Positions 3,108-8,749 of a stretch of DNA of 64,000 nt are shown here, piece after piece. Made by a program: the position numbers and the translations under genes. Position 1 is the stretch's first letter, and each line of letters opens with the position of its first letter. Source of the DNA: an uncultured Verrucomicrobiae bacterium (GTDB taxonomy: Bacteria; Verrucomicrobiota; Verrucomicrobiia; Chthoniobacterales; JAFAMB01); NCBI GenBank assembly GCA_963775805.1, contig CAVZKG010000002.1, positions 454,693 to 518,692 of the forward strand, in the 5' to 3' direction. The notes under the pieces are model-generated. The model was not told the DNA's origin, made no database searches, and saw nothing but the letters and a program-made list of their open reading frames with translations.

Positions 3108-4115
3108 TCAGCCGCTTGGTTGGACTCGCGGTTCCCGTAAGACCCAAAGCCGCTCAGAACGGTCCAGCACCGTCAACGGCGTGCCGGTGTGCTCGCGTTT
3201 GTAACCAAGCTTTGTCTTTAGTTTAGAGAAATGCGATTCCACAAAGGCCTGACTTCCCAGGATCACTCCATCGGTGAAGTAGCGGATCCGGCAACGCAAA
3301 ACTTCGGGCAGGGAGAGTTCGCCATTTTGTTCATCCACCACAGTTTGAGCGGTGCGCAGATCGAAGGCCCGGTGATTGGCTTTGGTATTCAAACTCCCGT
3401 GTACGAAGAGGTATTTGCGATACTCGCGGCTGACTTCTTTCCAGGAAGCTGTCTCTGGCTGACCCAGTATTGTTCTAATCCCCTGGCGTGCCAACTCACA
3501 ACCCTTGCCGAGCGCCTCGCCATAACCGCAATAGCGATAATCTTTAGGATCGGCACACAGGCCTGCCCGAACCGGGTTGAGGTCGATGTAAGCAGCAACG
3601 GCGGCCAATGCCTCACCCCCTTCAAGCAGAACACTCTTAAAACGCTCTGCCCAAAGCACCCCGTAGCGACCATGACGTCGGTTGTAGCCTTGGGCGAAGC
3701 GACCTTTAAGTTCCTTGACGAAAATCGAGATATCGTACATGCGCCTGCGGTAGGGCCCCAAGAGTCGTTGGATCGGACCGGCGCCATCCGGTTGCTGACG
3801 CAAGCGCTCTAGCTCCTGTTCGAGAGCTTGGCGACGCGCCGGGCCGTAGCCGGCCTCGATACGTTCAAGTAGCTCGAGCTCGGAAAGCGCTTTGGCCTCG
3901 GGCACTTCGCACAGAATGTGGAAGTGATTAGACATCAGGGCATAGGTCAAAACCCGTACACCGCTAAAGGCCTCCAGCCGTCGCATGAGTCGCACAAATC
4001 GTTCGGCCTCAGCGGAGCCGTGAGCGGAAGCATGGAAAATGAATAGACGGTCGACCACCCTGGAAACGCAGTGGTAGAAACTCTGACCCTCAGCCTTGAC
4101 GCGCGGAAATCTCAT
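3108..4115 (-). CDS. Y1 (HUH) tyrosine transposase, IS200/IS605 TnpA-like, REP-associated (RAYT) type
   Basis: The track ORF is 3108..4163. The likely start is the ATG at 4115 (MRFPRVKAEGQSFYHCVSRVVDR...). It has the HUH motif in LMSNHFHILCEV and the distal block RHGRYGVLWAERFKSVLL...YIDLNPVRAGL. There is no tnpB and no IS termini, and it is flanked by REP-like repeats. Confidence 0.7.
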   Translation of the reverse strand: MRFPRVKAEGQSFYHCVSRVVDRLFIFHASAHGSAEAERFVRLMRRLEAFSGVRVLTYALMSNHFHILCEVPEAKALSELELLERIEAGYGPARRQALEQELERLRQQPDGAGPIQRLLGPYRRRMYDISIFVKELKGRFAQGYNRRHGRYGVLWAERFKSVLLEGGEALAAVAAYIDLNPVRAGLCADPKDYRYCGYGEALGKGCELARQGIRTILGQPETASWKEVSREYRKYLFVHGSLNTKANHRAFDLRTAQTVVDEQNGELSLPEVLRCRIRYFTDGVILGSQAFVESHFSKLKTKLGYKREHTGTPLTVLDRSERLWVLREPRVQPSG

Positions 4116-4189
4116 CGGTGTGCGGCGCAACATACACAACATAATAAGAAAGTGTAGTGACATTTGCTCGGATACACCAATATTTGACC

Positions 4190-4346: not shown

Positions 4347-4670
4347 ATGAAACTCCTATCTATCCTCCCTCTTGCCCTCCTGGCGGTAACGATCTCGATG
4401 TACTCTGCAAAGGCCGATCAGGTTTACCACGGGGCGCGCGGCACCGCGGTACGCGGGCCGAACGGCGCGGCCGTCCATACTCACCATGGCACAGCAGTGC
4501 GCACCGGAAACGGTACCTACACCCACGTCCACGGCAGTGGAACCGTCACCCACACCAACTACAATTGGAATAACTCCTACTGGCGCTCGAACAAGTACGG
4601 CTATTGGAACGGAAACCGCGGTTACTGGCGCGTAGTCAACGGTAATCACGTCTTCGTTGTCGTGAATTGA
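4347..4670 (+). CDS. small secreted His/Gly/Thr/Asn-rich protein
   Basis: It has a signal peptide MKLLSILPLALLAVTISMYSAKA. The mature part has reiterated G(T/A)AV(R/H)T and H-x-H motifs (HGARGTAVRGPNGAAVHTHHGTAVRTGNGTYTHVHGSGTVTHT), followed by an aromatic/Asn-rich tail. Confidence 0.6.
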   Translation: MKLLSILPLALLAVTISMYSAKADQVYHGARGTAVRGPNGAAVHTHHGTAVRTGNGTYTHVHGSGTVTHTNYNWNNSYWRSNKYGYWNGNRGYWRVVNGNHVFVVVN

Positions 4671-5269: not shown

Positions 5270-5608
5270 ATGCCATCCGAGAAACCTGGAAAAATCACTT
5301 TCAAGGGTAAGATCGATCCACGATTGATCCCCACCGACGCCGCACCTGGTTATGAGATTGTCGATGCCAAGGTGACAGAGACGGGTGTCGACGTTTGGCT
5401 TTCAGATGGCAGAGTCATTATCACTCCGCTCTCGTGGTATCCAACTTTGGAAGCTGCAAGTCCAAAACAGCGTAAGGCGTTCGAGAATTGGGGAGTTGGA
5501 CTAGCGTGGGAAAACTTGGACTTCCACTTAAGTGTTGAAAGAATGCTTGCTGGGACGAGGAGCTGTTTCTCTAGATTTCAGGTGACCGCTCCAGATTATG
5601 GCCAGTAG
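5270..5608 (+). CDS. DUF2442 domain protein
   Basis: This is a 112-aa ORF. The segment VWLSDGRVIITPLSWYPTLEAASPKQRKAFENWGVGLAWENLDFHLSVERMLAG matches the DUF2442 pattern (PLSWYPRL...A.P..R..W....G..I.W..LDEDISVEGLL). Confidence 0.7.
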   Translation: MPSEKPGKITFKGKIDPRLIPTDAAPGYEIVDAKVTETGVDVWLSDGRVIITPLSWYPTLEAASPKQRKAFENWGVGLAWENLDFHLSVERMLAGTRSCFSRFQVTAPDYGQ

Positions 5609-5614
5609 GCGAGA

Positions 5615-5638
5615 TTGCAAAAACGGTGGTTTTTGCAA
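5615..5638 (+). terminator. 10-bp perfect hairpin after the DUF2442 gene; terminator function is uncertain
   Basis: ttgcaaaaac (5615-5624), loop ggtg, gtttttgcaa (5629-5638). The stem is AT-rich and no separate U-tract follows. Confidence 0.3.
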
Positions 5639-5743
5639 CTGCCAGAACGCAGTCATTCCACTACGCTCTGCGGCTCGTTGTAGAAAAAAGATGCTCTGGT
5701 GGACATCAAACGAGTAAGTTGTCGAAACTGTACGCACCGAAGA

Positions 5744-6127
5744 ATGAGAATTGGCGAACTCGCGAAATCCGTCGATGTGAACGTCGAAACAATTCGATAT
5801 TACCAGCGTATCGGACTACTGGGACTTCCGCAAAAACCCTACGGAGGGACCCGGTCCTATAGCGGCGACGATCTGAGGAGGCTGCGCTTCATCCGTCGCG
5901 CTCAGCGGATTGGATTTTCGCTGGAAGATATTCGAGCGCTTTTGGAGCTTTCGAGTTCCGATTGCAAACAGGTTGGAAAACTTGCTGCCGAAAAGCTAAC
6001 CCTGGTTCACACGAAGCTAATACAATTGCGCAGGATCGAATCGATCCTCACGAAGACCGTTGAACAATGCGCCAGCCGCAAAGGGCACCAACCTTGTCCG
6101 ATCATCGAGACGCTCAGTCAATCCTGA
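5744..6127 (+). CDS. merR: Hg(II)-responsive MerR family transcriptional regulator
   Basis: The start is the ATG at 5744 (the track ORF starts at 5699). It has an N-terminal HTH MRIGELAKSVDVNVETIRYYQRIGLL. The metal-binding Cys pattern SSDC...CASRKGHQPCP corresponds to the three conserved MerR cysteines. Confidence 0.85.
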   Translation: MRIGELAKSVDVNVETIRYYQRIGLLGLPQKPYGGTRSYSGDDLRRLRFIRRAQRIGFSLEDIRALLELSSSDCKQVGKLAAEKLTLVHTKLIQLRRIESILTKTVEQCASRKGHQPCPIIETLSQS

Positions 6128-6135
6128 AGTAGCTA

Positions 6136-6167
6136 TTGACACCGTACCCTAGTACGGCGCTTAAGGT
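6136..6167 (+). promoter_or_regulatory. MerR operator/promoter (merOP-like)
   Basis: The sequence reads TTGACA (6136-6141), CCGTAC-ccta-GTACGG dyad (6142-6157), cgct, TAAGGT (6162-6167), giving a 20-bp spacer between the hexamers. Compare Tn501 TTGACTCCGTACATGAGTACGGAAGTAAGGT, quoted from memory. It lies 14 nt upstream of the merT ATG. Confidence 0.8.
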
Positions 6168-6180
6168 GAGGCTCAGAGAT

Positions 6181-6549
6181 ATGTCTGAGCTGAATAAACC
6201 TAATGCTACCCAAAGCGCAAAAGGCTTCTTGGTGGCGGGGATTCTTGCGGCTGTTGGAGCGTCGATCTGCTGCGTCGGGCCCCTCGTGTTGCTGGCGCTT
6301 GGCGTTAGTGGTGCCTGGATCGGCTCACTGACAGCGCTCGAACCGTACCGTCCGCTTTTTATTGGACTGACGCTTCTCTTCCTCGGGTTCGCGTTTCACC
6401 GCCTCTATTTCGCACGTCGACCTTGCGCTCCAGGGTCGGCCTGCGCGAATCCGCGCACCCTAAAACACCAGCGCTTGGCATTCTGGATCGTTACGATCCT
6501 GGTGCTCGGCCTAATTTCCGTACCGTGGCTGGCGCCACTATTTTATTGA
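6181..6549 (+). CDS. merT: mercuric ion transporter MerT
   Basis: The start is the ATG at 6181 (MSELNKPN...). It has three TM helices, a vicinal Cys pair in TM1 (GASICCVGPLVLLALG) and a second cytoplasmic Cys pair (RPCAPGSAC). Confidence 0.85.
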   Translation: MSELNKPNATQSAKGFLVAGILAAVGASICCVGPLVLLALGVSGAWIGSLTALEPYRPLFIGLTLLFLGFAFHRLYFARRPCAPGSACANPRTLKHQRLAFWIVTILVLGLISVPWLAPLFY

Positions 6550-6551
6550 TT

Positions 6552-6842
6552 ATGAAATCGCATAAGAACCGTCTTGCCCTACTCACTGCCCTCGTGGCGT
6601 TTCCCTTTAGTCTGTTTGCTGGGACCTTACAAACCGTCACTCTCGAGGTGAGGAATATGACCTGCGCGGTCTGTCCGATCACGGTCAAGAAGGCATTGGG
6701 AAAAGTGCCTGGGGTAACGGACGCGAAAGTGGATTTTGATAAGAAAACTGCCAGCGTTTCGTTTGACCCTGATAAAGCGGATGTCGCTCAACTAACCAAA
6801 GCGACTGCAGACGCGGGCTATCTTTCCTCTGTCCGTAATTGA
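6552..6842 (+). CDS. merP: periplasmic mercuric ion binding protein MerP
   Basis: The ATG at 6552 lies 2 nt after the merT stop. It has a signal peptide, then an HMA fold with the NMTCAVCP (GMTCxxC-type) motif. Confidence 0.85.
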   Translation: MKSHKNRLALLTALVAFPFSLFAGTLQTVTLEVRNMTCAVCPITVKKALGKVPGVTDAKVDFDKKTASVSFDPDKADVAQLTKATADAGYLSSVRN

Positions 6843-6850
6843 ATGCGGCT

Positions 6851-7069
6851 ATGAACGAGGCTCTCCAAGAATCCGTGCTGGTCTGCCCCGTTTGCGGCTT
6901 CGCTAAGCGAGAAACGATGCCAACCAATGCCTGCCAATTCTTCTACGAGTGCTCTAACTGCAAAACGCTGCTACGCCCTAAGCCCGGCGATTGCTGCGTC
7001 TTTTGTTCTTACGGTTCGGTGAAATGTCCGCCAATGCAGGGCGAAAATCACATCTGCGCTGCTGGCTAG
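6851..7069 (+). CDS. GDCCVxC domain-containing protein (Cys form)
   Basis: It has an N-terminal CPVC, a central CSNC and the C-terminal motif PGDCCVFCSYGSVKCPP. This small Cys-rich family is, as I recall, frequently linked to mer operons. The start is the ATG at 6851 (the track starts at TTG 6839). Confidence 0.65.
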   Translation: MNEALQESVLVCPVCGFAKRETMPTNACQFFYECSNCKTLLRPKPGDCCVFCSYGSVKCPPMQGENHICAAG

Positions 7070-7100
7070 CTGAACCAATCCACTCCCACAGAGCCCAGTT

Positions 7101-7721
7101 ATGAAGAAATCTATTAGCCAGGAAACTGTTACTTTTTACGATGTGCCGTTAGTATGCGGAGCTGCACCATCGATTGGTTGCGGCAGTCGAGCTAAGCCAC
7201 TCTTGTTAGATCTCGAGCGGCAAAGTGCAATCAAAGAGGTTTGGTTGAACCGGACGGGAACGATAGTAGCGATCGTATGGCATGACGAACCACACATGGA
7301 AGAAGCCGGCAAACCGATCTTCAAAAGGCATGAAGTAGAATACAATGAACTGCGCGGCGATAAGCCCGACTCTCTTCGAATTGACGAGGGCTGGTTTCGT
7401 GGCGCCGAAGTGGATCATCTAAGCTTGGAAGAAGCGCGAGAAATTGCGGAAACCTTGGTGGCCCTGGTAGGCAAGGAGCGGTTGACCTCTATTGAGGAAG
7501 CCGCGCAGATCAAATCCGACATTGAACACTACTTTCGGAAAGAGCTGATCAAGATTCGAACTAAACAAGAATTGCTGCACGACACGCAAGACAAGTTCCG
7601 AAAGGCGGTTCTTAACATCTTTCAGAAGCATGTCGGGACGGAACGAGCGAGCGAGGTACAGGCGCGCATCCAAAACCCATTCGCCATAGCAGAAAAGGCA
7701 GAGACCTCTAGCTGTTGTTGA
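7101..7721 (+). CDS. unassigned cytoplasmic Cys-containing protein, last gene of the mer-like operon
   Basis: This is a 206-aa ORF. The N-terminal ~65 aa looks like a ferredoxin-like/HMA-type module with an extended Cys loop (VTFYDVPLVCGAAPSIGCGSRAKP...VWLNRTGTIVAIVWHD). It continues with a helical Glu/Lys-rich region and ends in a vicinal pair ...AETSSCC. No TM segment or signal peptide is present. Confidence 0.6.
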   Translation: MKKSISQETVTFYDVPLVCGAAPSIGCGSRAKPLLLDLERQSAIKEVWLNRTGTIVAIVWHDEPHMEEAGKPIFKRHEVEYNELRGDKPDSLRIDEGWFRGAEVDHLSLEEAREIAETLVALVGKERLTSIEEAAQIKSDIEHYFRKELIKIRTKQELLHDTQDKFRKAVLNIFQKHVGTERASEVQARIQNPFAIAEKAETSSCC

Positions 7722-8363: not shown

Positions 8364-8573
8364 TCATGTATCCAGAGTGAAGCCGACCTTCACGGTCACC
8401 TGCCAGTTCGCAACTTTGTTATTCTCGAGGTGGCCGCGCACCTCGGCAACCTCGAACCACTTCATATTCCGGATCGTCTTGCCGGCTCGCGTGATTGCAT
8501 TGTTCACTGCGTCTTCGATACCGTTTGGCGAGGAACCGACCAGCTCAATCTTTTTGTAAATGTGGTCACTCAT
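8364..8573 (-). CDS. dodecin family flavin-binding protein
   Basis: The start is the ATG at 8573. The 69-aa sequence [69 protein letters not shown] has the typical dodecin length and pattern. The track ORF (to 8717) is an upstream extension. Confidence 0.8.
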
Positions 8574-8749
8574 AGCCGGAACAAACCATTGCACGTGGCG
8601 TCGGGCGAGCAGATTTCTAGACGTAAGGACAAAGCATTTTTGCAGTTGAAAAAATGAGTTTCGTCTCCAAGTGCGTAGCACTGGTCTTTCTTTTTGTCGG
8701 TAGAACCTGATTTGCAAGAGCCCTCACGGAAATGCTCTGCTCGTTTTGG

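What the first reader, a model, noticed from the sequence alone, without database searches (positions are those of the whole stretch)
7101..7721. Unassigned 206-aa protein with a C-x7-C loop in an HMA-like N-terminal module and a C-terminal vicinal Cys pair
The residues VTFYDVPLVCGAAPSIGCGSRAKPLLLDLERQSAIKEVWLNRTGTIVAIVWHD read like a beta-alpha-beta-beta metal-binding module. The loop is longer than the usual GMTCxxC. A helical, charged ~120-aa region follows, and the protein ends in ...SSCC. A flexible C-terminal Cys pair is what MerA uses to acquire Hg(II). Its position as the last gene of a MerR-controlled operon suggests a cytoplasmic Hg(II) acceptor or buffer not named in the classical mer nomenclature. 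I could not assign it to any family from memory.
Basis: inference. Interest (0 to 1): 0.65.

Follow-up and report, generated by a model that had tools for sequence, protein, structure and literature searches.

The report
Unnamed HMA-like mercury-operon cysteine protein
The ORF is a real gene of a large, unnamed protein family found next to or fused with the mercury transport genes merT and merP in several bacterial phyla, and it most likely passes mercury ions along the detoxification pathway through conserved cysteines.

Summary
It is the last gene of merR-merT-merP-GDCCVxC-X.

It matches no Pfam, NCBIfam or PDB sequence. It has 278 close homologues and 503 representatives at 50% identity, and sources call the stand-alone members only 'hypothetical' or 'uncharacterized'. 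Both loop cysteines are over 90% conserved, and the x7 spacing holds in 249 of 253 motifs.

An AlphaFold model (pLDDT 91.8) shows a beta-alpha-beta-beta-alpha-beta domain with the cysteines in the beta1-alpha1 loop, then a helical domain. The best Foldseek matches are HMA domains including MerP, but none is statistically significant.

50 of 60 genome loci carry merT, merP/HMA, GDCCVxC or merA beside it.

That places them in the periplasm.

The window copy and its clade have no leader, so they are probably cytoplasmic. In seven sister contigs a merA without its N-terminal HMA domain follows. The 64-kb window has no merA.

Verdict: a new HMA-like Hg(II)-trafficking accessory protein. Hg binding is untested.

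The parts
5699..6127 (+). merR, a MerR-family regulator. The ORF opens at GTG 5699. The likely real start is ATG 5744 (MRIGELAK...).
   Evidence: Pfam MerR_1, MerR-DNA-bind and MerR hits. NCBIfam TIGR02051 MerR scores 144.9 bits, just under the 150.85 cutoff. The three Cys in ...SDC......EQC... and ...QPCP... line up with Hg-ligand Cys82/117/126 of Tn501 MerR; this comparison is from my own knowledge of that sequence and was not run with a tool.
6136..6549 (+). merT, the inner-membrane Hg(II) transporter, with the CC pair in TM1 (ICCVGP) and a C-x5-C in the loop (RRPCAPGSAC).
   Evidence: PF02411 MerT E 1.9e-38; NF010314 MerT 135.8 bits. Motifs read from the translation.
6552..6842 (+). merP, a periplasmic HMA protein with a signal peptide and MTCAVC.
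   Evidence: PF00403 HMA E 9.7e-17. TIGR02052 MerP scores 95.9 bits, above the 92.55 cutoff. Start 6552 taken from the translation.
6839..7069 (+). GDCCVxC-domain protein, 76 aa, Cys-rich, no leader.
   Evidence: NF041374 GDCCVxC E 1e-30, 105.7 bits against a cutoff of 40. It lies next to or fused with X in 31 of 60 genome loci.
7101..7721 (+). X, the 206-aa protein of the finding (stop codon included).
7122..7352 (+). HMA-like ferredoxin-fold domain, residues about 8-84: b1 9-14, a1 28-39, b2 44-50, b3 55-60, a2 66-76, b4 about 82-83.
   Evidence: AlphaFold model mc3f6f36400ea, pLDDT 91.8. Foldseek best hits are HMA domains with target-normalised TM 0.73-0.79.
7155..7181 (+). Cys19-x7-Cys27 loop (CGAAPSIGC) between b1 and a1, the proposed Hg(II) site.
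   Evidence: Invariant in the close clade, at least 90% conserved family-wide, x7 spacing in 249 of 253 motifs.
7392..7709 (+). Linker strand (98-100) and helical domain (helices 101-125, 131-148, 155-163, 165-178, 180-189, 196-203). It opens with the conserved W-x-R-G-x-x-V-D-x-L-S-x-x-E-A motif.
   Evidence: No structural or sequence match for this part.
7713..7718 (+). C-terminal Cys205-Cys206 pair on a low-confidence, probably flexible tail.
   Evidence: At least 90% conserved in the close clade. A CC occurs in the last 30 residues in 108 of 114 close-clade members and 59 of 114 representatives. pLDDT of the last block is 59.

Best explanation
X belongs to a large, so far unnamed family of mer-operon accessory proteins. 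It has three parts. The first is a ferredoxin-fold domain shaped like an HMA domain, whose metal loop is enlarged to Cys-x7-Cys. The second is a helical domain of unknown role. The third, in this clade, is a flexible tail ending in Cys-Cys. The most likely function is to bind Hg(II) through thiolates and pass it on by ligand exchange along the MerP, MerT, MerA relay. The family comes in two forms. Most members are exported or fused to the periplasmic end of MerT or MerT-MerP. A minority has no leader. The window copy has no leader, so it is most likely cytoplasmic. There it would take Hg(II) from the cytoplasmic Cys pair of MerT, together with the neighbouring leaderless GDCCVxC protein. In sister operons it would hand Hg(II) to a MerA that lacks its own N-terminal HMA domain, acting as a detached counterpart of NmerA. 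The 64-kb window has no merA. Here X either feeds a reductase encoded elsewhere or acts with GDCCVxC as a cytoplasmic Hg(II) buffer. What is shown: the gene is real, the family is conserved, the cysteines are conserved, the predicted fold is HMA-like, the gene is linked and fused to mer genes, and leaders are present or absent as described. What is inferred: Hg(II) binding, the direction of transfer, the compartment, and the partnership with MerA.
For: Family size and conservation. Cysteine spacing x7 in 249 of 253 motifs. Fold: the 118-sequence alignment gave pLDDT 91.8 and pTM 0.86 with beta-alpha-beta-beta-alpha-beta order and both Cys in the b1-a1 loop. The top Foldseek PDB hits are HMA domains (Ccc2a, PacS, MerP 1osd, ATP7B, CadA, CCS) with probability 0.97-1.00 and target TM 0.73-0.79. 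Linkage: 50 of 60 genome loci from Verrucomicrobiota, Bacteroidota, Ignavibacteria and others have merT, merP/HMA, GDCCVxC or merA beside X. Homologues also sit on plasmids: after merT2-merP2 on pMR68, next to merR in a merTPCAD operon in Rhodanobacter, and beside ArsR and merTP in Fibrella. Fusions: MerT-MerP-X, MerT-X, HMA-X and X-GDCCVxC. Two forms in one operon: an exported and a leaderless copy occur together in L009 and L010 (Bacteroidota) and in L066, L067, L070 and L071 (close clade). No leader in the window copy: an in-frame stop lies 10 codons upstream. Seven close-clade contigs (L066, L067, L068, L070, L071, L072, L073) have a 467-482 aa merA downstream. It starts directly at the FAD-binding motif, shows no HMA hit, and in four of the five sequences printed ends in KLSCCAE; L068 does not, and L071 is cut by its contig end. 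The window's merT and merP keep their cysteine motifs. The merR Cys alignment to Tn501 is from my own knowledge.
Against: No experiment shows Hg binding. Foldseek E-values are 0.08-0.3, with none at or below 0.001. Sequence methods see no HMA relationship: no PF00403 hit for the X domain in any of 118 members, and hhalign probability 3.7%. Most of the family is extracytoplasmic, so a cytoplasmic role for this copy rests only on the missing leader. Exported X-GDCCVxC fusions exist (P0124, P0134, L046), so the leaderless-X-with-GDCCVxC pairing is not exclusive. The link between leaderless X and NmerA-less MerA is weak: Fisher p about 0.04 on 16 loci, the seven positives belong to one lineage (MerA 78-88% identical), and the Rhodanobacter plasmid pairs a leaderless X with a long merA (1725 nt, about 574 aa; its HMA domain was not checked). 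About 40% of full-length representatives have no Cys in the tail. Ten of 60 loci show no mer gene nearby. The window has no merA. No MerR operator was identified.
Confidence: 0.6

Rival explanations
1. X is a terminal Hg(II) sink rather than a relay. Together with the Cys-rich GDCCVxC protein it sequesters imported Hg(II) in operons without a reductase, giving tolerance by buffering or bioaccumulation.
For: There is no merA or merC in the 64-kb window, nor downstream of X in L001, L002 and L064/L065. In the 60 genome loci GDCCVxC and merA rarely occur together: 1 with both, 30 with GDCCVxC only, 8 with merA only (Fisher p 0.011). Many members carry long Cys-rich tails with several CC pairs.
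Against: Stoichiometric binding gives little protection. Close-clade operons carry GDCCVxC, X and merA together (L066, L068, L070). Importing Hg(II) through MerT and MerP without reducing it is expected to sensitise cells (established knowledge of mer systems). A merA may lie elsewhere in the 861-kb contig.
Confidence: 0.15
2. X is a thiol-disulfide oxidoreductase or redox chaperone that keeps the cysteines of MerP and MerT, or of GDCCVxC and MerA, reduced and able to bind Hg. It would not carry the metal itself.
For: It has a conserved Cys pair in a loop at a helix N-terminus. Most members are exported into the oxidising periplasm, beside or fused to Cys-dependent MerP and MerT.
Against: The fold is HMA-like and not thioredoxin-like. 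C-x7-C is not a known redox motif. Leaderless copies would be in the already reducing cytoplasm. No electron donor gene is conserved nearby.
Confidence: 0.08
3. X serves a different soft metal such as Cu(I), Ag(I), Cd(II) or Zn(II), or is a general thiophilic-metal chaperone. On this reading the mer-like operon is not specific to Hg.
For: HMA-like folds bind many soft metals. In L014, X is followed by DUF3347, an HMBD protein and a 1053-aa ORF that I did not scan (an RND-type efflux pump is only a guess from its size). In L032 an ArsR regulator sits beside X. The window MerR scores just below the MerR equivalog cutoff, at 144.9 against 150.85.
Against: The dominant neighbours are MerT, MerP and MerA, with the MerA hallmark C-terminal CC in most copies inspected. 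One homologue sits next to a gene annotated as Hg(II)-responsive MerR inside a merTPCAD operon. The window MerR keeps the three Hg-ligand cysteines (own knowledge applied).
Confidence: 0.08
4. X is a structural, docking or regulatory subunit. For example, the helical domain might bind MerT, or X might modulate MerR, with the cysteines serving only to sense Hg(II).
For: About half of the protein is a conserved helical domain with no known counterpart, opening with the conserved W-x-R-G-x-x-V-D-x-L-S-x-x-E-A motif. Covalent fusion to MerT suggests physical association.
Against: No DNA-binding or known interaction domain was detected. The most conserved element is the Cys loop in the position of the HMA metal site.
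Confidence: 0.07

Closest known systems
MerP (periplasmic mercury-binding protein; HMA domain PF00403, TIGR02052)
   Same: Predicted beta-alpha-beta-beta-alpha-beta fold, with MerP 1osd among the best Foldseek hits. A Cys pair lies in the b1-a1 loop. The gene sits beside merT. Most family members are exported, as MerP is.
   Different: C-x7-C instead of GMTCxxC. No detectable sequence similarity. An extra helical domain of about 100 aa and often a Cys-rich tail. It occurs in addition to MerP rather than in its place. The window copy has no signal peptide.
NmerA (N-terminal HMA domain of mercuric reductase MerA) and the MerA C-terminal Cys pair
   Same: Proposed role: a cytoplasmic thiol acceptor of Hg(II) from MerT that hands it to the MerA core. 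The tail ...SSCC resembles the MerA ...KLSCCAE. The leaderless X lies upstream of merA genes that lack NmerA.
   Different: It is a separate polypeptide and not a MerA domain. The motif differs. The analogy is inferred from gene context in a single lineage.
CopZ/Atx1-type metallochaperones and P-type ATPase metal-binding domains
   Same: Best structural matches include Ccc2a, PacS, ATP7B, CadA, ZiaA and CCS domain 1. Both are small soluble soft-metal carriers working by Cys ligand exchange.
   Different: No CxxC motif, no sequence match, two-domain architecture, and mer rather than cop/P-type ATPase gene context.
GDCCVxC domain-containing (seleno)protein (NF041374)
   Same: A small, uncharacterised Cys-rich protein of the same operons. 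It is adjacent to or fused with X, and the standalone copies also end in CC.
   Different: It is an unrelated sequence (four-Cys, zinc-ribbon-like pattern plus GDCCVxC). It is the neighbouring gene, not X.
Unnamed ORF after merT2-merP2 on Pseudomonas sp. K-62 plasmid pMR68 (WP_015061149.1, UniRef I2FG50)
   Same: A true homologue: 39.8% identity over residues 2-120, a C-x7-C motif (CPSAPEIAC), and a position directly after merT and merP.
   Different: It is exported (has a signal peptide) and ends ...HRPMPGEK without tail cysteines. The authors described the cluster only as merT2-merP2 and left this ORF unnamed (PMC3737084).

Membership tests
HMA domain (Pfam PF00403) | beta-alpha-beta-beta-alpha-beta ferredoxin-like fold | tested here: met
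   The AlphaFold model (pLDDT 91.8) has this strand and helix order. Top Foldseek PDB hits are HMA domains with target TM 0.73-0.79 and probability up to 1.00, although E-values are only 0.08-0.3.
HMA domain (Pfam PF00403) | GMxCxxC metal-binding motif in the b1-a1 loop | tested here: not met
   The motif is VCGAAPSIGCGS, which is C-x7-C. The spacing is x7 in 249 of 253 family motifs. The position in the fold is equivalent.
HMA domain (Pfam PF00403) | Significant match to the family profile | tested here: not met
   No PF00403 hit for the window protein at E<=1. Of 118 members only 5 hit HMA; the two I inspected (P0171, P0265) carry an additional canonical HMA domain. hhalign of the X N-domain against MerP/HMA domains gives probability 3.7%.
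HMA domain (Pfam PF00403) | Binds a soft metal ion through the two cysteines | not testable with these tools
   Requires metal titration, EXAFS or NMR on purified protein.
MerP (TIGR02052) | Sec signal peptide and periplasmic location | tested here: not met
   The window protein has only 11 residues before b1 and an in-frame stop 10 codons upstream. In contrast, 83 of 150 family representatives have signal-like N-termini.
NmerA (N-terminal domain of MerA) | HMA domain covalently attached to the MerA catalytic core | tested here: not met
   X is a separate ORF, and no pyridine-nucleotide-disulfide oxidoreductase domain is fused to it. Functional analogy only.
mer operon accessory gene (operational definition) | Recurrent same-strand linkage or fusion with merT/merP, merA or merR across unrelated taxa | tested here: met
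   50 of 60 genome loci have such linkage. MerT-MerP-X, MerT-X and HMA-X fusions exist. Plasmid copies lie beside merR, merT and merP.
mer operon accessory gene (operational definition) | Hg(II)-inducible expression and a contribution to the Hg phenotype | not testable with these tools
   No expression or genetic data are available. No MerR operator could be identified upstream.
Named mer proteins with NCBIfam models (MerT, MerTP, MerP and MerD models appeared in the same scan) | Match to any curated model | tested here: not met
   Zero NCBIfam families at E<=1 for X, while its operon neighbours matched MerR, MerT, MerP and GDCCVxC models in the same search. MerG of pMR26 could not be compared directly because no sequence was available.

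The most novel reading that the evidence does not exclude
X and the GDCCVxC protein form a previously unrecognised thiolate relay for Hg(II) that works on both sides of the inner membrane. Exported X copies, often fused to MerT-MerP, would act in the periplasm. Leaderless X copies, adjacent to or fused with GDCCVxC, would act in the cytoplasm, where they replace NmerA as a detached Hg(II) donor for core MerA. Where merA is absent, the pair would provide reductase-independent Hg(II) handling in widespread soil Verrucomicrobiota and Bacteroidota.
Probability: 0.3. Interest if true: 0.7.

Novelty: new variant of a known kind. Interest (0 to 1): 0.58.

Why it matters
The mer system is the textbook metal-detoxification operon, and its parts list (MerR, T, P, C, F, E, G, H, A, B, D) is usually treated as essentially complete. 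This family has more than 500 clusters at 50% identity, occurs in mer operons of several phyla and on plasmids, and is often fused to MerT-MerP. It still has no name, no domain model and no published function in the libraries searched.

If it carries Hg(II), three things follow. It adds a step to the accepted relay. It explains how MerA enzymes without NmerA receive their substrate. It also improves annotation of mer loci in soil metagenomes, where merA-centred surveys miss operons such as this one. The C-x7-C loop on an HMA-like scaffold would be a new solution for Hg(II) coordination.

Tried and rejected
1. Sequence assignment failed. Pfam, NCBIfam and PDB phmmer, plus a PDB search with the family profile, gave nothing. 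The weak SH3_18/CarS hit (15 bits against a cutoff of 25) occurs in 1 of 118 members and is rejected.
2. The first AlphaFold run used only 32 close homologues and gave pLDDT 58 with a poor N-domain, so I discarded it.
3. hhalign of the X N-domain against MerP/HMA domains gave probability 3.7%, so there is no sequence-level support for homology.
5. I tested for a selenocysteine variant. The Cys19-to-Trp variants P0089 and P0091 could have been TGA read as Trp, but the codon in L075 is TGG. Rejected.
6. I looked for merA in the window. None of the seven ORFs of 459-566 aa, nor the 438-aa ORF also scanned, is a MerA, and tblastn with sister-operon MerA, MerC and the 190-aa unknown found nothing.
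7. I looked for a promoter and operator. There is no sigma-70-like promoter, and aligning four upstream regions showed no clear MerR dyad. A 10-nt inverted repeat at 5615-5638 is not conserved in relatives.
8. Strict mutual exclusion of GDCCVxC and merA is rejected. It looked so in the genome loci, but L066, L068 and L070 carry both.
9. Base composition gives no clear sign of horizontal transfer: GC is 0.51-0.54 in the operon against 0.53-0.59 in the flanks.
10. Literature searches found no paper naming the family.
11. The exact protein P0001 was not found by the look-up of encoding contigs, and cluster look-up gave no names.
Full report
**1. The observation**

ORF 7101-7721 (+) starts at ATG, ends at TGA 7719-7721 and encodes 206 aa. 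Cys205-Cys206 (7713-7718) are the last two residues. An in-frame TGA at 7071-7073, with no start codon before 7101, excludes a longer N-terminus.

Upstream on the same strand lie four genes:
- merR (5699-6127; Pfam MerR families; TIGR02051 144.9 bits)
- merT (6136-6549; PF02411 E 1.9e-38)
- merP (6552-6842; HMA; TIGR02052 above cutoff)
- a GDCCVxC-domain protein (6839-7069; NF041374 E 1e-30)

X itself matches no Pfam or NCBIfam model at E<=1 and no PDB sequence.

**2. It is a real, widespread family**

A word-indexed search found 278 homologues, about 110 of them 60-70% identical. The sources call them 'hypothetical' apart from two evidently spurious labels. A profile search of 1.84 billion cluster representatives found 503 at E<=1e-3 and 106 at E<=1e-30.

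In 32 close homologues Cys19 and Cys27 are invariant within FYDVPLVCGAAPxIGCGSRAKPLL, and Cys205/Cys206 are at least 90% conserved. In a 118-sequence alignment spanning the family, these positions are at least 90% conserved: L17, C19, A21, G26, C27, G28, K32, P33, W48, G53, T54, A57, W98, V104, D105, L107, S108, E111 and A112. The two cysteines are seven residues apart in 249 of 253 detected motifs.

A second search seeded with a proteobacterial member again returned only 'hypothetical' or 'uncharacterized' names, except where the protein is fused to MerT.

**3. Fold**

With 32 close sequences AlphaFold gave pLDDT 58. With the diverse alignment it gave pLDDT 91.8 and pTM 0.86. The elements are:
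- b1 9-14, then a loop carrying C19 and C27 with isolated bridges at residues 18 and 26
- a1 28-39, b2 44-50, b3 55-60, a2 66-76 and a short b4 near 82-83
- a strand at 98-100 and six helices up to residue 203
- a low-confidence tail

This is the beta-alpha-beta-beta-alpha-beta order of HMA domains, with the Cys pair where HMA has its CxxC.

Foldseek against the PDB ranks HMA domains first for this part: Ccc2a 1fvq, CCS, PacS 2xmw, MerP 1osd, ATP7B, ZiaA and CadA. Target-normalised TM is 0.73-0.79, rmsd about 3 A and probability 0.97-1.00. E-values are only 0.08-0.3, and none reaches 0.001. The helical domain has no credible match.

Sequence methods do not see the relationship. hhalign against MerP/HMA domains gives probability 3.7%. 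Only 5 of 118 members hit PF00403, and the two I inspected (P0171, P0265) carry an extra canonical HMA domain.

**4. Gene context**

A scan of one genome per species returned 60 loci. They come from Chthoniobacterales and other Verrucomicrobiota, Chitinophagales, Flavobacteriales, Cytophagales, Ignavibacteria and a few others, including the cultured Chitinophaga japonensis and Flagellimonas myxillae.

By tblastn with the window's own proteins and a MerA motif, counts within 3 kb on the same strand were: 31 loci with merT, 33 with merP/HMA and 31 with GDCCVxC. Nine have merA within 8 kb. Fifty of 60 have at least one of these.

Among the ten without, L014 has DUF3347 and an HMBD heavy-metal-binding protein downstream, and L032 has a divergent ArsR regulator.

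The typical Bacteroidota order is a ~125-aa ORF (an ArsR regulator in the annotated Fibrella plasmid), then a merT-merP fusion, then X, then GDCCVxC or merA. In the window's clade the order is merR, merT, merP, GDCCVxC, X.

Three plasmid contexts are informative:
- On Pseudomonas sp. K-62 plasmid pMR68 a homologue follows merT2-merP2. The paper describing that plasmid lists the cluster only as merT2-merP2 (PMC3737084).
- On a Rhodanobacter denitrificans plasmid a leaderless homologue is the first gene divergent from an annotated Hg(II)-responsive merR, in an operon that continues to merT, merP, merC, merA and merD.
- A Fibrella plasmid has X, ArsR and merTP inside a Tn3-type element.

**5.

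Of 150 family representatives, 83 have a signal-peptide-like or lipoprotein-like N-terminus, for example P0122, P0124, P0127 and P0134. Another 27 have long N-terminal extensions. Those inspected are:
- MerT-MerP (P0132, P0138, P0181, P0194; L017, L026, L029, L036, L037, L054)
- MerT alone (P0162, P0163, P0245)
- a signal peptide plus HMA (P0171, P0202, L035)
- unrelated exported domains (P0199, P0232)

P0145 carries an unrelated N-terminal domain with no hydrophobic segment.

MerT is established to have three transmembrane helices with its C-terminus outside, which is why natural MerT-MerP fusions exist (established knowledge; NCBIfam NF033556 appears). A domain fused behind MerT or MerT-MerP is therefore periplasmic. 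Most of the family is thus extracytoplasmic.

The window protein and its roughly 110 close relatives have no leader. Leaderless and exported copies occur together in one operon in two phyla:
- In L009 and L010, an exported X is followed by a leaderless X-GDCCVxC fusion.
- In L066, L067, L070 and L071, an exported paralogue of 226-277 aa lies upstream of merT, and the leaderless X lies after GDCCVxC.

Leaderless representatives are scattered among exported ones by sequence similarity, so the switch probably happened more than once, although some are truncated gene calls. Exported X-GDCCVxC fusions also exist (P0124, P0134, L046), so the compartment rule is not strict.

**6. Relation to MerA**

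The window has no merA. None of the seven ORFs of 459-566 aa, nor the 438-aa ORF also scanned, is a reductase, and tblastn with sister-operon MerA and MerC finds nothing.

In seven other close-clade contigs (L066, L067, L068/L069, L070, L071, L072, L073/L074) a merA of 467-482 aa follows X, sometimes after an exported ~190-aa unknown protein and merC. That MerA starts directly at the FAD-binding motif (MKQTHYDLVILGSG...) and has CVNRGC. In four of the five sequences printed it ends in KLSCCAE; L068 does not, and L071 is cut by its contig end. It shows no HMA hit, so it lacks NmerA.

In Bacteroidota loci with an exported X, merA mostly carries NmerA (L024, L030, L031, L035, L060; by length also L028). 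L040 and L044 are exceptions. The contrast (7 of 8 against 2 of 8) gives Fisher p about 0.04. However, the seven positives are one lineage, and the Rhodanobacter plasmid pairs a leaderless X with a long merA (1725 nt, about 574 aa; its HMA domain was not checked). This is suggestive only.

**7. Mechanism**

The following are shown: a conserved two-domain protein, an invariant Cys pair at the HMA metal-site position, recurrent linkage and covalent fusion to MerT and MerP, and exported and leaderless forms.

The following is inferred. X binds Hg(II) through the two loop thiolates, with the terminal CC of this clade acting as a mobile second site, as in the MerA C-terminus. It then exchanges Hg(II) with the Cys pairs of its partners.

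For the leaderless window copy the most economical reading is a cytoplasmic acceptor of Hg(II) from the MerT C-x5-C loop, working with the adjacent leaderless GDCCVxC protein and, where present, delivering to an NmerA-less MerA. In this window, without merA, it either serves a distant reductase or buffers Hg(II).

I put the general claim (a mer-linked Hg(II)-binding or trafficking protein) at about 0.6. The specific claim (a cytoplasmic stand-in for NmerA) is about 0.4-0.45.

Rivals are a terminal sink with GDCCVxC (0.15), a thiol-disulfide maintenance protein (0.08), specificity for another soft metal (0.08), and a docking or regulatory subunit (0.07).

**8. Comparison with known families**

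X works most like MerP, NmerA and CopZ-type metallochaperones. It is not a member of PF00403 by sequence or motif (membership rows). No curated model or paper in the searched libraries names it.

I rate it a new variant of a known kind: an HMA-like metallochaperone scaffold with a new C-x7-C loop, an added helical domain and two alternative locations. Interest is moderate to fairly high for mercury-resistance specialists. The family is large, sits in the best-studied metal-resistance operon, and offers a testable answer to how MerA enzymes without NmerA get their substrate.

**9. Limits**

- There are no experimental data.
- Signal peptides were judged by a hydrophobicity rule and by eye.
- The MerR operator was not found.
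- The rest of the source genome could not be searched for merA.

Noticed in passing
window 6839-7069 (+); L009 8666-9547, L010 8649-9503, L046 7932-8765: The GDCCVxC-domain gene is the most faithful partner of X: it is adjacent in 31 of 60 genome loci and fused to X in several. Standalone copies are about 70 aa, have no leader and themselves end in CC. It has a NCBIfam model, but I found no paper on it.
   Followed up: partly
window 1-64000: The mer operon here has no reductase. No merA, merC or remnants of them exist anywhere in the 64-kb window, although most longer contigs of the same clade carry merC and merA after X.
   Followed up: yes
L066 6146-6967; L070 4187-4960; L071 4133-4966; L067 6363-7043: Sister operons carry a second, exported paralogue of X (226-277 aa, signal peptide, tail ...CCSPKSTxKS) directly upstream of merT. 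One operon therefore encodes both an exported and a leaderless copy.
   Followed up: partly
L067 8810-9484; L070 6731-7297; L073 6599-7297; L072 1318-1743; L066 8749-9099: A conserved exported protein of about 190 aa (MNxxKKLLIGLVTVAAMPAFADT...) with no Pfam hit lies between X and merC/merA in the close clade. This is another unnamed mer-linked gene.
   Followed up: no
L066 4107-5896; L070 2088-4081; L071 2094-3928: A HisKA_3 histidine kinase and a GerE-type response regulator are inserted between merR and the exported X paralogue in three sister operons.
   Followed up: no
L063 4710-7040 (Rhodanobacter denitrificans plasmid NZ_CP088981.1): Four genes lie between the leaderless X homologue and merT inside a MerR-controlled merTPCAD operon: a (2Fe-2S)-binding protein, DUF2282, DUF692 and a DNA-binding-domain protein. 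This gene set resembles clusters for modified metal-binding peptides (from my own memory, not tested).
   Followed up: no
window 5615-5638: A perfect 10-nt inverted repeat, TTGCAAAAAC-ggtg-GTTTTTGCAA, lies between the DUF2442 gene and merR. It is not conserved in relatives. It could be a terminator or a binding site.
   Followed up: partly
window 3108-4163 (-) and 5270-5608 (+): An IS200/Y1-transposase-like protein (weak PF01797 hit) and a DUF2442 protein lie just upstream of the operon. GC content of the operon (0.51-0.54) is only slightly below that of the flanks.
   Followed up: partly
window 4347-4670 (+): A 107-aa ORF has a signal peptide and a Gly/His/Thr/Asn-rich repetitive body (…HGTAVRTGNGTYTHVHGSGTVTHTNYNWNN…). 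Its function is unknown.
   Followed up: no
L003 897-1415: MerP and the GDCCVxC domain are read as one 172-aa ORF in this Verrucomicrobiota MAG. This is either a genuine fusion, which would put GDCCVxC in the periplasm, or an assembly error.
   Followed up: no
L075 1548-1556; P0089, P0091, P0066, P0084: A few metagenomic close-clade variants replace a loop cysteine (C19W, C19S, C27Y). The C19W codon is TGG and not TGA, so these are not selenocysteine forms. They may be decaying copies or sequencing errors.
   Followed up: yes
window 8364-8717 (-): The ORF on the opposite strand downstream of X, containing [27 protein letters not shown]...WFEV...VKVGFTL, looks like a dodecin-type small protein (from memory, not tested). 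It is unrelated to the operon.
   Followed up: no
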